NCBI GenBank assembly: GCA_964016885.1 | Contig: OZ024751.1 | Span: 48,050,001-48,114,000 of the forward strand | Source: Eledone cirrhosa | Taxonomy: Eukaryota | DNA: 64,000 bases | Direction: 5' to 3' | Shown: positions 1 through 43,673 of the stretch, piece after piece | Layout of the letters: every line of letters starts with the position of its first letter | Position numbering within the stretch: position 1 is the first letter of the stretch | Translations under genes and position numbers: made by a program | The notes under the pieces: generated by a model | The model's database searches: none | What the model was told of the DNA's origin: nothing | Seen by the model: the letters and a program-made list of their open reading frames with translations, nothing else

Positions 1-27
1 ATATATATATATATATATATATATATT

Positions 28-668
28 TATTTGAAACTTACACCATATATAAATATATATATATATATAAATTAATAAAAACAATGAAATAAAAACAAAG
101 AACAAATTCCTTATATTAAAAAATTCACCATTTTATATATATATATTTATATATATATATTTATTTATATATATATATTTATTGTTATACTTGGGGAGGG
201 TCATATTGTTGTAATAAGATTGCCAGAAATAATAACAGAACACACTCACTGTTTGGTTGGTTTTCGCTTCTGTATCTTTTATATCTCCACAGTTAATTCA
301 TTTGGTCCTCAATGTTTATCATTGACTGACAAACGGTCAATAATACAGATATAATATAGATATAAACACATATATATAGTCTAAGAAAGTTCTTTCGTTT
401 CACATCTGCAACATCATCTGTGGTACTATTATCTTCCTCCTGTTGTATTGTATGTCTACGCCATTTTTCAAAAGAAAAAGATACAGAAGCGAAAACCAAC
501 CCAAACCAAACAGTGAGTGTGTTCTGTTATTTCTGGCAATATTACAACAATATGACCCTCCCCAAGTATAACAATATTTGTTTCGACATACAATTTCATA
601 TCAAAAACCTCGCAAAACGAATTCATCACCATATATATATATTTATATATGGTGTAAGTTGCAAATAT
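28..668. mobile_element. Nested inverted-repeat element, probable Penelope-like pLTR fragment with an inverted partial copy, embedded in (TA)n
   Basis: Outer inverted arms about 28-58 / 639-668 (tttgaaacttacaccatatataaat vs atttatatatggtgtaagttgcaaa). Inner arms about 181-281 / 476-575. Degenerate hammerhead on the minus strand near 375-425. ATG-ACC-CTC-CCC-AAG-TAT-AAC-AAT occurs in both inner arms and is homologous to 26702-26780. Confidence 0.55.
375..425 (-). ncRNA. Degenerate minimal hammerhead ribozyme-like motif
   Basis: Minus strand reads CAGATGA-T-GTTGCA-GATG-TGAAAC-GAAA-GAAC-TT. Stem II and GAAA are present, but core U4 is replaced by A and stem I is poor. The 3' side resembles that of the 26517 hammerhead. 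Confidence 0.4.
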
Positions 669-26252: not shown

Positions 26253-26359
26253 TGTTTGATAGTGACTTGAAGAGATCTGTTTATTCTCAAAGAATTTCTT
26301 CGTTTCTGCCACTGTCCAATATCTCTATCTTTCTGTTTCTTCTTTGATTTCTCATTCTA

Positions 26360-26397
26360 TTCTCTGATGAAGGACTAGAATCCGAAATGTCGAAACT
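26360..26397 (+). ncRNA. Minimal hammerhead ribozyme-like motif (degenerate)
   Basis: CTGATGA-A-GGA-CTAGAA-TCC-GAAA-TG-TC: both core boxes and stem II are intact. Stem III is probably CG>TG decayed and stem I is weak. Downstream sequence is homologous to 27345-27420. Confidence 0.55.
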
Positions 26398-26479
26398 ATA
26401 TCAAGCATAATATTAATATATTTCTTTATTTAACTGTGTTTGCTTTGTTATTTCTGTTTGCCTTTTGCATATATATATA

Positions 26480-26785
26480 TATAAGGAAAGGCACAGAAAC
26501 AAAGAAAGGAATCCCCAGTCACTGAAGAGGTCACAGAGTGTGTGACGAAAGGACTATGACTATATATAAACAACTATCTGGTAGTGGAACCAACCAACCA
26601 ACCAGAAATTTATAAATTTGTAGATTTGTAAATTTATAAATTTATAAATATATAATAAATTGAAGTGAAAGCAACTGGTGCGTGTGTTTCTTATTGGCAA
26701 CATGACCCTCCCAAAGTATAACAATATCGGTTTCAACACACGATTTCAGATAAAGAATCTTGCTAAACAAATTCAGAAACGAAAT
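26480..26785 (+). mobile_element. Hammerhead-bearing short element with truncated ORF start (Penelope-like pLTR candidate), flanked by (TA)n
   Basis: Hammerhead at 26517, then ATG at 26702 (MTLPKYNNIGFNTRFQIKNLAKQIQKR) homologous to 552-626. Confidence 0.55.
26517..26561 (+). ncRNA. Minimal type I hammerhead ribozyme
   Basis: Stem I AGTCA/TGACT; core CTGAAGA plus one extra G; stem II GTCACA-GAGTG-TGTGAC; GAAA; 2-bp stem III (A-U, G-C, GA loop); CUA cleavage triplet ending at 26556. Confidence 0.75.
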
Positions 26786-26865
26786 ATATATATATATATT
26801 ATATATATATATATATATATTATTATTATCCACACACACGCACACATGTATATGATGACTCATAC

Positions 26866-27317: not shown

Positions 27318-27465
27318 ATATATATATATTAAGACCATCTTCCTGTTATATCAAGCGTTAACCTAATATATCCCTTCCATATACTGTACCGATTGTGTTG
27401 TTATTTCTGTTTACCTTTTACGTTATATATATTTTTCTTCCTCATAATCGTCTCTTTCTCCCTGT

Positions 27466-43325: not shown

Positions 43326-43673
43326 ATCATCATCATTTTACGTCCGCTTTTCCCTGCTTGCAAGAGTGGGATGGTAACTGATTCTGGCTTGATTTCTACA
43401 CCAACCTCATTTACAGTGACTCCTGGGTGCTTTTTTTTCCATGGCGCCTACACGTCCACTTTACAGTGTGGGCTGGGTGCTTTTTTTGCTGTGGCACCTC
43501 CACGACCACTTTGCAGTGGAATGATATCATCTCATTTCTACAGCTGAGTAAACTGGAGCAATATGAAATAAAGTGTCTTGCTCAAGGAAACAACACATCA
43601 CCCGGTCTGAGAATTGAACTCACAACCTTTCGATTGCAAGCCCAATGCTCTAACCACTAAGCCATGTGCCTCC
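43326..43673 (-). mobile_element. SINE family A
   Basis: Reverse complement of the 12092 copy with small deletions. Confidence 0.92.

What the first reader, a model, noticed from the sequence alone, without database searches (positions are those of the whole stretch)
26480..26785. Hammerhead followed by a conserved ORF start (MTLPKYNN...) whose copies show synonymous-biased divergence
Seen: about 145 nt after the hammerhead, ATG 26702 opens MTLPKYNNIGFNTRFQIKNLAKQI. The homolog at 552 reads MTLPKYNNICFDIQFHIKNLAKRI. Over 24 codons I count 7 synonymous and 6 non-synonymous differences and no indels. Both copies break into (TA)n after about 26 codons. A third, shorter copy (ATG 204, minus strand) lies downstream of a degenerate hammerhead at 375-425. 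Inference: these are terminal repeats of an autonomous ribozyme-bearing retroelement family (Penelope-like, where the pLTR carries the ORF start) that targets (TA)n, or a small peptide-coding retrozyme-like unit. The sample is small, so the coding signal is only suggestive.
Basis: partly seen in the sequence, partly recalled or inferred. Interest (0 to 1): 0.75.

Follow-up and report, generated by a model that had tools for sequence, protein, structure and literature searches.

The report
Penelope retrotransposon end, unnamed lineage
This is the cut-off end of a very abundant Penelope-type jumping gene whose intact parents lie elsewhere in the genome; the design of the end is known, but the family's copying enzyme carries a telomerase-sized extra segment and likely belongs to a branch that has not been named.

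Summary
Observation confirmed. Window 26484-26787 is the 3' end (pseudo-LTR with a type I hammerhead, plus 86 nt of ORF start) of a 5'-truncated Penelope-like element (PLE) sitting in (TA)n. The ATG opens a 1227-1269 aa RT + C-terminal GIY-YIG ORF in 12 of 14 copies fetched. The copies at 552 and 204 belong to a sister family (65% aa identity; dN/dS 0.13-0.22), and are the two arms of one inverted insertion. Copies end at two fixed sites: +26 (11,254 exact matches) and +86 (11,569); only 470 continue. 45 of 50 head-to-head pairs have one end of each kind. This is the known PLE "tail"; the scan noted paired ends before in other elements of this genome. No peptide-coding retrozyme. Less ordinary: the RT has a G[GA][AP]IG motif B' and a ~70-aa insert at the telomerase IFD position, which canonical C-terminal-endonuclease PLEs are reported to lack. 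Dozens of relatives share it and form a long-branched group. Whether that lineage is unnamed is open (about 45%): no named references were in my tree. Ribozyme cleavage, expression and priming mechanism are untested.

The parts
26484..26787 (+). 5'-truncated family A PLE copy: last 218 nt of the pLTR plus 86 nt of ORF start (long end)
   Evidence: 40 of 40 scored genome matches 99-100% identical over 302 nt, 639 candidates; parents extend upstream and, in 7 of 30 loci, downstream into the ORF
26517..26561 (+). Type I hammerhead with 2-bp stem III; predicted cleavage after 26556 (CUA); likely active only as a dimer
   Evidence: Sequence; compensatory stem II changes between families; same architecture as in PMC4209133. 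Cleavage not tested
26563..26570 (+). TATA-like octamer just 3' of the hammerhead (function inferred only)
   Evidence: Sequence; an AT run sits at the same place in family B
26702..26787 (+). First 28 codons of the 1230-aa RT/GIY-YIG ORF; short end site at +26 (26727), long end site at +86 (26787); both sites read AATATCG in the parent
   Evidence: N-terminus aligns with relatives P0024 and P0011
26469..26483 (.). (TA)n target, 5' side; it is also the 3' flank of an older repeat
26788..26820 (.). (TA)n target, 3' side
26258..26470 (+). Older, unrelated hammerhead-bearing repeat (core at 26364) whose (TA)n flank received the family A copy
   Evidence: 39 other scored matches at 76-81% identity, 2091 candidates; 12 of 20 loci followed by (TA)3 or more at the same end by a strict test
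180..468 (-). Family B arm with short end (+25/26); ATG at 204; degenerate hammerhead at 376-429
473..630 (+). Family B arm with long end (about +79); ATG at 552; head-to-head partner of 180-468

Best explanation
The stretch is the 3' end of a 5'-truncated copy of an autonomous Penelope-like retrotransposon, and the short peptide is the cut-off start of its 1230-aa reverse transcriptase-endonuclease. Shown: the unit is about 4.07 kb (ORF 3.7 kb, pLTR 0.39 kb); it forms tandem arrays; copies end at two fixed sites inside the ORF start, directly in (TA)n; most inverted insertions have one end of each kind; copies run through the hammerhead cleavage site. Inferred: the protein binds its own RNA near the ORF start, the GIY-YIG domain cuts both strands in (TA)n, and the two free 3' ends each prime reverse transcription at a different internal site of uncleaved RNA (+26 and +86 in family A, +26 and +69/71 in family B), likely helped by ATAT pairing with the target. 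The two cDNAs stop early and are joined head to head. The window copy is a single long-end arm whose 5' end was joined straight to the repeat. The hammerhead likely processes multimeric transcripts but is not needed for insertion.
For: ORF continues: 470 exact genome matches read on into the ORF; 12 of 14 fetched family A loci give 1227-1269 aa from MTLPKYNN, 6 of these 12 keep all eight motifs checked; 13 ORFs of 1210-1212 aa in 12 of 15 fetched family B loci. Fold: model pLDDT 89; the top 14 VIA rows are all telomerase RTs (Z 13.0-14.4) and residues 685-782 match I-TevI GIY-YIG (Z 10.1, rmsd 2.1, 88 aligned). Selection A vs B: dN/dS 0.21 (codons 1-28), 0.14 (N-terminal), 0.135 (RT), 0.22 (EN). 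Ends: 11,254 at +26, 11,569 at +86, control patterns 0. Pairing: 45 of 50 divergent pairs within 10 kb on the first 43.5 Mb of C1 are one short plus one long, P = 2e-9 against independence; 29 of 29 family A and 10 of 10 family B pairs in fetched loci (loci chosen by one end). Either arm can reach further 5' than the other, so neither is a copy of the other. 0 of 46 family A starts that keep the post-cleavage sequence begin at the cleavage site. In vitro precedent: PMC11167929 (both strands cut and extended; two internal RT start sites in the ORF start define the tail; hammerhead not required).
Against: No biochemical or RNA evidence for this family. PMC11167929 found initiation at a site not homologous to the cut DNA and no difference in start site between strands, which differs from the ATAT overlap and the one-of-each rule seen here. 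Family B's long site overlaps (TA)n by only 1-2 nt, so pairing alone does not choose the site. 5 of 50 pairs are long-long or short-short. Pfam scores for RT and GIY-YIG are below the curated cut-offs and absent for full-length proteins. Target-site duplications cannot be read inside (TA)n.
Confidence: 0.9

Rival explanations
1. Same element, different origin of the ends: a longer cDNA or a fold-back intermediate is made first, and the endonuclease or host repair trims it at two recognised sites.
For: PMC8557442 suggests the tail results from endonuclease-mediated resolution. Several pairs have both arms truncated at nearly the same 5' position, e.g. L161, L164, L208, as a fold-back would give. 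The first 26 nt are 24 of 26 identical between families against 94 of 150 further on, which could be a DNA recognition site.
Against: In other pairs the short-end arm reaches hundreds of bases further 5' than the long-end arm, and the long arm holds 60 nt that the short arm lacks. PMC11167929 mapped tail ends to RT start sites in vitro.
Confidence: 0.2
2. The lineage is not new: it is a divergent branch of a named clade (Nematis or the paraphyletic Neptune) or is already in Repbase/Dfam as 'Penelope'.
For: It has the CX2-5CxxC linker and C-terminal GIY-YIG of Neptune and Nematis, a hammerhead in the pLTR, and (TA)n targets. The lineage is widespread, so curators may well have met it; PMC13282606 lists 31 recently active PLE families in Octopus vulgaris without clade names in the passages read. 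Arkhipova 2006 and 2017 were not held.
Against: All Neptune, Nematis and Penelope/Poseidon rows in Figs S1 and S7 of PMC8557442 have GxAMG/GxPMG and no insert; the motifs searched are absent from that supplement; a branch of about 2.7 substitutions per site, SH-aLRT 100, separates the 44 rows of this group from 31 canonical-type rows.
Confidence: 0.5
3. The (TA)n next to each end is made by the RT itself, by telomerase-like slippage on the template ATAT, and is not a pre-existing target.
For: The RT is closest in fold to telomerase and has an IFD-position insert; family A ends overlap ATAT.
Against: The window copy has (TA)n on its 5' side too, and that repeat is the usual flank of an older element. 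Family B's long site has no ATAT to slip on. An empty site was not seen directly.
Confidence: 0.1
4. A small non-autonomous retrozyme-like unit that encodes a selected 26-28 aa peptide.
For: Short copies outnumber continuing ones about 50 to 1; the synonymous bias is real.
Against: No fixed 5' end or monomer length, no stop codon, the 'peptide' runs into (TA)n at 9 or 28 codons, and the same codons start the intact long ORFs.
Confidence: 0.02

Closest known systems
Poseidon_Ac (PAc) of Anolis carolinensis, PMC11167929 (parts 1-2 of 4 read: abstract, main text, start of methods)
   Same: Single ORF RT + C-terminal GIY-YIG, tandem units, pLTR hammerhead, AT-rich target, two end sites inside the ORF start that define the tail, uncleaved RNA as template.
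   Different: Here the sites are at +26 and +86 (or +69/71), 60 or 43-45 nt apart against a 30-40 bp tail; they overlap the target repeat; the two ends of an insertion almost always use different sites; the hammerhead lies 145 nt upstream of the ATG and does not overlap it; Zn-finger linker and RT insert present.
Neptune and Nematis clades (PMC8557442: passages, section 12, supplement parts 54, 57, 58)
   Same: C-terminal GIY-YIG with CCHH-type residues, CX2-5CxxC linker, hammerhead, microsatellite preference.
   Different: Motif B' is G[GA][AP]IG, not GxAMG; motif A Asp to motif B' Gly is 135 aa here against 64-67 in the figure's Neptune, Nematis and Penelope rows (my hand count); ORF 1210-1270 aa.
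Naiad/Chlamys clade and telomerase RTs (IFD carriers; PMC8557442)
   Same: Insert between RT motifs A and B'; (TA)n targets (Naiad). Hand counts from Fig S1: human TERT 122, S. pombe 117, Tetrahymena 156, Naiad-Amil 88, Chlamys-1_tObl 126.
   Different: Endonuclease is C-terminal, a canonical hammerhead is present, DKG reads DKSG. The insert is predicted as short helices and loops; structural or evolutionary homology with the TERT IFD was not shown.
Adineta vaga Pen2a-Pen4 elements, PMC3846280 (passages read)
   Same: pLTR plus tail carries the first 12-22 codons; inverted 5' pLTR; long in-frame Asn-rich insert in the ORF.
   Different: There the inserts lie between RT and thumb or RT and EN in Penelope/Poseidon elements; here 165-193 aa (28% and 50% Asn) lie between the N-terminal domain and the RT, where four aligned relatives have a linker of about 20-40 aa.
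Metazoan non-LTR retrozymes (preprint 10.64898/2026.07.22.740005, part 1 of 5 and passages read)
   Same: Type I hammerhead, relation to PLE pLTRs.
   Different: Retrozymes are non-coding tandem monomers; this is a truncated copy of a coding element.

Membership tests
Penelope-like elements (EN+) | RT most similar to telomerase RT | tested here: met
   Top 14 VIA rows and top 3 Foldseek rows are TERTs; profile match to canonical PLE-type proteins, probability 100, E 6e-57
Penelope-like elements (EN+) | GIY-YIG endonuclease in the same single ORF | tested here: met
   Pfam GIY-YIG E 0.0003, 21.4 bits, just under the 22.6 cut-off; I-TevI match Z 10.1, rmsd 2.1; one ORF of 1227-1269 aa
Penelope-like elements (EN+) | Tandem or partial-tandem units forming pLTRs, inverted 5'-truncated copies, optional tail | tested here: met
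   4.05-4.07 kb array on C4; inverted pairs and two end sites
Penelope-like elements (EN+) | Type I hammerhead with short stem III in the pLTR | tested here: met
   Motif and covariation; not called by Rfam; cleavage itself not testable
Penelope-like elements (EN+) | Retained spliceosomal intron in the 5' UTR (some families) | not tested
   No RNA data in hand
Penelope/Poseidon | No Cys-rich linker between RT and EN; no IFD | tested here: not met
   CX4CXXC linker and 70-aa insert present
Neptune | CX2-5CxxC linker before a C-terminal GIY-YIG | tested here: met
Neptune | No IFD; GxAMG motif B'; RT groups with Neptune | tested here: not met
   Insert present, GAAIG; groups away from the 5 rows labelled Neptune-like by motif only
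Nematis | CX2-5CxxC linker before a C-terminal GIY-YIG | tested here: met
Nematis | No IFD; GLAMG motif B' as in the three published rows | tested here: not met
   Compared by eye with Figs S1 and S7 of PMC8557442
Nematis | RT phylogeny | not testable with these tools
   No named Nematis sequence was available for the tree
Naiad/Chlamys | N-terminal GIY-YIG, no canonical hammerhead | tested here: not met
   EN is C-terminal; hammerhead present
Naiad/Chlamys | Insert at the IFD position | tested here: met
   position only, homology not shown
Hydra | Short element under 3 kb, DKT motif, no IFD | tested here: not met
   4.07 kb unit, DKSG, insert present
Non-LTR retrozyme | Non-coding tandem monomers each with a hammerhead | tested here: not met
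   Single truncated copy of a coding 4-kb element
Non-LTR retrozyme | Circular RNA | not testable with these tools
   No RNA reads available

The most novel reading that the evidence does not exclude
These two families represent an unnamed, widespread clade of C-terminal-endonuclease Penelope-like elements whose RT carries a telomerase-length insertion in the fingers (66 of 67 scorable 50%-identity representatives have a motif A to B' spacing of 130-149 aa). They insert by asymmetric two-ended priming, one DNA end at each of two fixed RNA sites. Near-identical intact copies (family B', mean 99.6% identity) give a ready enzyme for testing what an IFD-like insert does outside telomerase and how the tail is made.
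Probability: 0.4. Interest if true: 0.68.

Novelty: new variant of a known kind. Interest (0 to 1): 0.48.

Why it matters
The feature itself is ordinary PLE anatomy. Two things could matter. First, PMC8557442 states that canonical C-terminal-endonuclease PLEs lack the IFD and discusses the IFD as a link between PLEs and telomerase; a large C-terminal lineage with a telomerase-length insert bears on whether the IFD is ancestral or gained repeatedly. Second, the near 1:1 genome count and the one-of-each pairing give a sharp prediction for the unresolved PLE insertion mechanism (two different RT start sites for the two ends of one break), which the single in vitro system did not show. With at least 22,800 family A ends and 7,775 short family B ends by exact match, these families are also a sizeable and recent part of this octopus-type genome (host inferred from the nearest named protein, Octopus vulgaris, 67%).

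Tried and rejected
Rfam at gathering threshold: no hammerhead hit. Pfam on full-length proteins and phmmer against PDB: nothing useful; the alignment profile hit only two bacterial RTs weakly. Sequencing runs: no RNA holder listed; this says nothing on expression. An empty-site test with public contigs was not obtained, so a pre-existing target is shown only indirectly. 5' ends at the hammerhead cleavage site: none in family A; my family B pattern was mis-specified, but all 27 printed cases keep the core by eye. The family B long-end count (3,359) double-counts on one strand and is not comparable. The careful tree did not finish; only the quick tree is used. Dropped before the tree: 14 of 87 homologues (two fusions, rows without YxDD or too short). 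Literature searches for this lineage: and supplement search 59 found no description; Repbase, Dfam, Arkhipova 2006 and 2017 and bioRxiv supplements could not be seen and may hold one. The scan's own index had no note by sequence and none with the words IFD, GGPIG or GAAIG.

Full report
Observation. The sequence is as described. A type I hammerhead lies at 26517-26561 (5-bp stem I, core CTGAAGA, bulged G, 5-bp stem II, GAAA, 2-bp stem III with GA loop, predicted cut after 26556), 145 nt before ATG 26702. Rfam does not call it, but stem II shows compensatory changes between the two families: GTCAC/GTGAC in family A (67 motifs) against mostly GTTGC/GCAAC in family B (37 motifs). This is the short-stem-III architecture that PMC4209133 describes for PLE pLTRs and expects to work as a dimer (part 1 of 4 and passages read). 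The 7 synonymous and 6 non-synonymous changes are correct and depart from neutrality (P = 0.0056).

What it is. The window lies at G000:C11:48.05-48.11 Mb of a 3.0-Gb genome. All 40 scored matches to 26484-26785 are 99-100% identical. Of 30 loci, 23 (the window's own included) stop at the same base and run into (TA)n; 7 continue in frame. A protein search with the first 149 aa scored 150 places, several with open frames of 1238-1280 aa. Of 14 such loci fetched, 12 gave ORFs of 1227-1269 aa from MTLPKYNN; 6 of the 12 keep all eight motifs checked; mean pairwise identity is 96.6%. The unit is ORF plus a 0.39-kb pLTR, about 4.07 kb, and forms tandem arrays. The window copies at 552 and 204 belong to family B. 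A young B' subfamily has 13 ORFs of 1210-1212 aa in 12 of 15 loci fetched, mean identity 99.6% over 14 ORFs. A and B' are 65% identical over RT and EN, with dN/dS 0.21 for codons 1-28, 0.14 for the N-terminal domain, 0.135 for RT and 0.22 for EN; the Asn-rich region is saturated. So the coding signal is real but belongs to the parents.

Domains. Pfam scores are weak: RVT_1 19-19.7 bits and GIY-YIG 21.4 bits, both under cut-off. A model from a 48-sequence alignment has mean pLDDT 89. Its best structural matches are telomerase RTs (top 14 VIA rows, Z 13.0-14.4), and residues 685-782 match the I-TevI GIY-YIG domain (Z 10.1, rmsd 2.1). The profile matches canonical PLE-type proteins at E 6e-57. 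The start codon is supported by distant relatives with a homologous N-terminus. The nearest named protein is from Octopus vulgaris at 67%, so the host is inferred to be an octopus.

The ends. Exact genome counts for family A: 11,254 copies end at +26 into ATAT, 10,676 pass that site, 11,569 end at +86, 470 continue; reversed control patterns gave 0. These are lower bounds and use different pattern lengths. In fetched loci (a biased set), 54 of 55 non-continuing family A starts end at these two sites; family B ends lie at +14 to +30 (29 of 61, 20 at +26), +66 to +76 (25 of 61) and +83/84 (5 of 61); 7,775 family B copies end at +26. Using the 100 long and 92 short ends listed for the first 43.5 Mb of C1, 45 of 50 divergent neighbours within 10 kb are one short plus one long, against half expected (P = 2e-9); 3 are long-long and 2 short-short. 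In fetched loci 29 of 29 A and 10 of 10 B pairs are mixed. Window 180-630 is one such pair. Either arm can be the longer. None of 46 family A starts that keep the post-cleavage sequence begins at the cleavage site, and the window copy starts 73 nt upstream of it. The (TA)n at 26469-26483 is the usual flank of an older repeat, which suggests the target was there first; an empty site was not seen.

Mechanism. Shown: anatomy, end sites, pairing, copying through the hammerhead. Inferred: the endonuclease cuts both strands in (TA)n and each 3' end primes cDNA at a different internal RNA site, helped in family A by ATAT overlap (both sites read AATATCG). This follows PMC11167929 (parts 1-2 of 4 read), where PAc cuts and extends both strands, starts at two internal sites that define the tail, and does not need its hammerhead. 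It differs in that PAc sites were not homologous to the target and did not differ by strand. Family B's long site overlaps the repeat by only 1-2 nt, so position or RNA structure must also count. The tail 'present at one end' is already described (PMC8557442 and PMC3846280 passages), and earlier notes of this scan report two fixed, paired ends in retrozyme-like arrays and a Hydra element of this genome (unchecked notes, seen after my own count). The pairing rule is therefore a quantitative sharpening, not a new class of feature.

Lineage. Among 87 homologues, those above about 30% identity have G[GA][AP]IG at motif B' and a motif A to C spacing of 166-174 aa, against 96-102 in the GxAMG-type rows; the profile alignment places a gap of about 70 aa between motifs A and B'. 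Of 148 further representatives, 67 had both motifs and 66 had a spacing of 130-149 aa; family A has 135. By hand count from Fig S1 of PMC8557442 (TERT rows assumed to start three residues before the Asp), Penelope, Neptune and Nematis rows have 64-67, a Naiad 88, one Chlamys 126, human TERT 122, Tetrahymena 156. That paper says canonical C-terminal-EN PLEs have no IFD, and that IFD-like regions also occur sporadically in Coprina. A quick IQ-TREE run on 75 rows separates 44 rows of this group from 31 canonical-type rows by a long branch, SH-aLRT 100; rows were labelled by motif, the root is a midpoint, and no Nematis, Hydra, Naiad, Coprina, Athena or TERT sequence was included. The insert is predicted as short helices and loops; homology with the TERT IFD is not shown. 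My searches found no description of this lineage, but Repbase, Dfam, two key Arkhipova papers and preprint supplements were not seen. PMC13282606 (passages) shows that octopus PLEs are annotated in bulk.

Verdict. The element is a member of the endonuclease-bearing PLEs by every feature testable here. It works like PAc and Neptune-type elements but fails a defining feature of each named clade as published. The finding as written is known anatomy, correctly guessed. The open, more interesting claims are the unnamed IFD-bearing lineage (about 0.4-0.45) and asymmetric two-ended priming (about 0.7), both testable with intact young copies. Novelty: new variant of a known kind. Interest 0.48.

Noticed in passing
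window 26258-26470 and 27347-27419: An older hammerhead-bearing repeat family (76-81% identity, 2091 candidates) with a fixed 3' end followed by (TA)n or (CA)n; one of 19 loci gave a weak hit to a PLE endonuclease region (E 1e-4), so it is probably the end of another PLE.
   Followed up: partly
pLTR of both families, about 240-255 nt upstream of the ATG (window 459-468 minus strand; just upstream of 26484 in parents): Both families keep an AA(A/G)ATGGCG motif that resembles a YY1 site (label recalled, from no call). 5' junctions are mildly enriched around it: 8 of 38 (A, P 0.001) and 7 of 56 (B, P 0.04) against a uniform expectation, bins chosen after looking. It may mark the transcription start.
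   Followed up: partly
G000:C4:94.67-94.78 Mb (L031, L032): Long tandem array of family A units, 4.05-4.07 kb period; the units read carry frameshifts or stops near the ORF start.
   Followed up: partly
L097-L110, L145-L159, residues about 246-438: In-frame Asn-rich insert (28% and 50% Asn) that differs between the two families and is absent from four aligned relatives.
   Followed up: partly
window 25-53 (minus) and 631-668 (plus): A stretch of about 35 nt with a non-repeat core occurs in outward orientation on both flanks of the family B insertion; origin unexplained.
   Followed up: no
P0047: An Octopus vulgaris protein model named dynein regulatory complex subunit 6-like holds about 150 aa at 78% identity to this ORF; exonised element or annotation error.
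   Followed up: no
G000:C1:132947047-132947579 and C1:34853591-34855133, C1:42149461-42150346: A 46-nt tandem array built from the ORF start, and arrays of about 270-315 nt with family B ends that could be non-autonomous derivatives.
   Followed up: no
window 43607-43664 minus: Partial tRNA-like match (31.2 bits), probably a SINE head.
   Followed up: no
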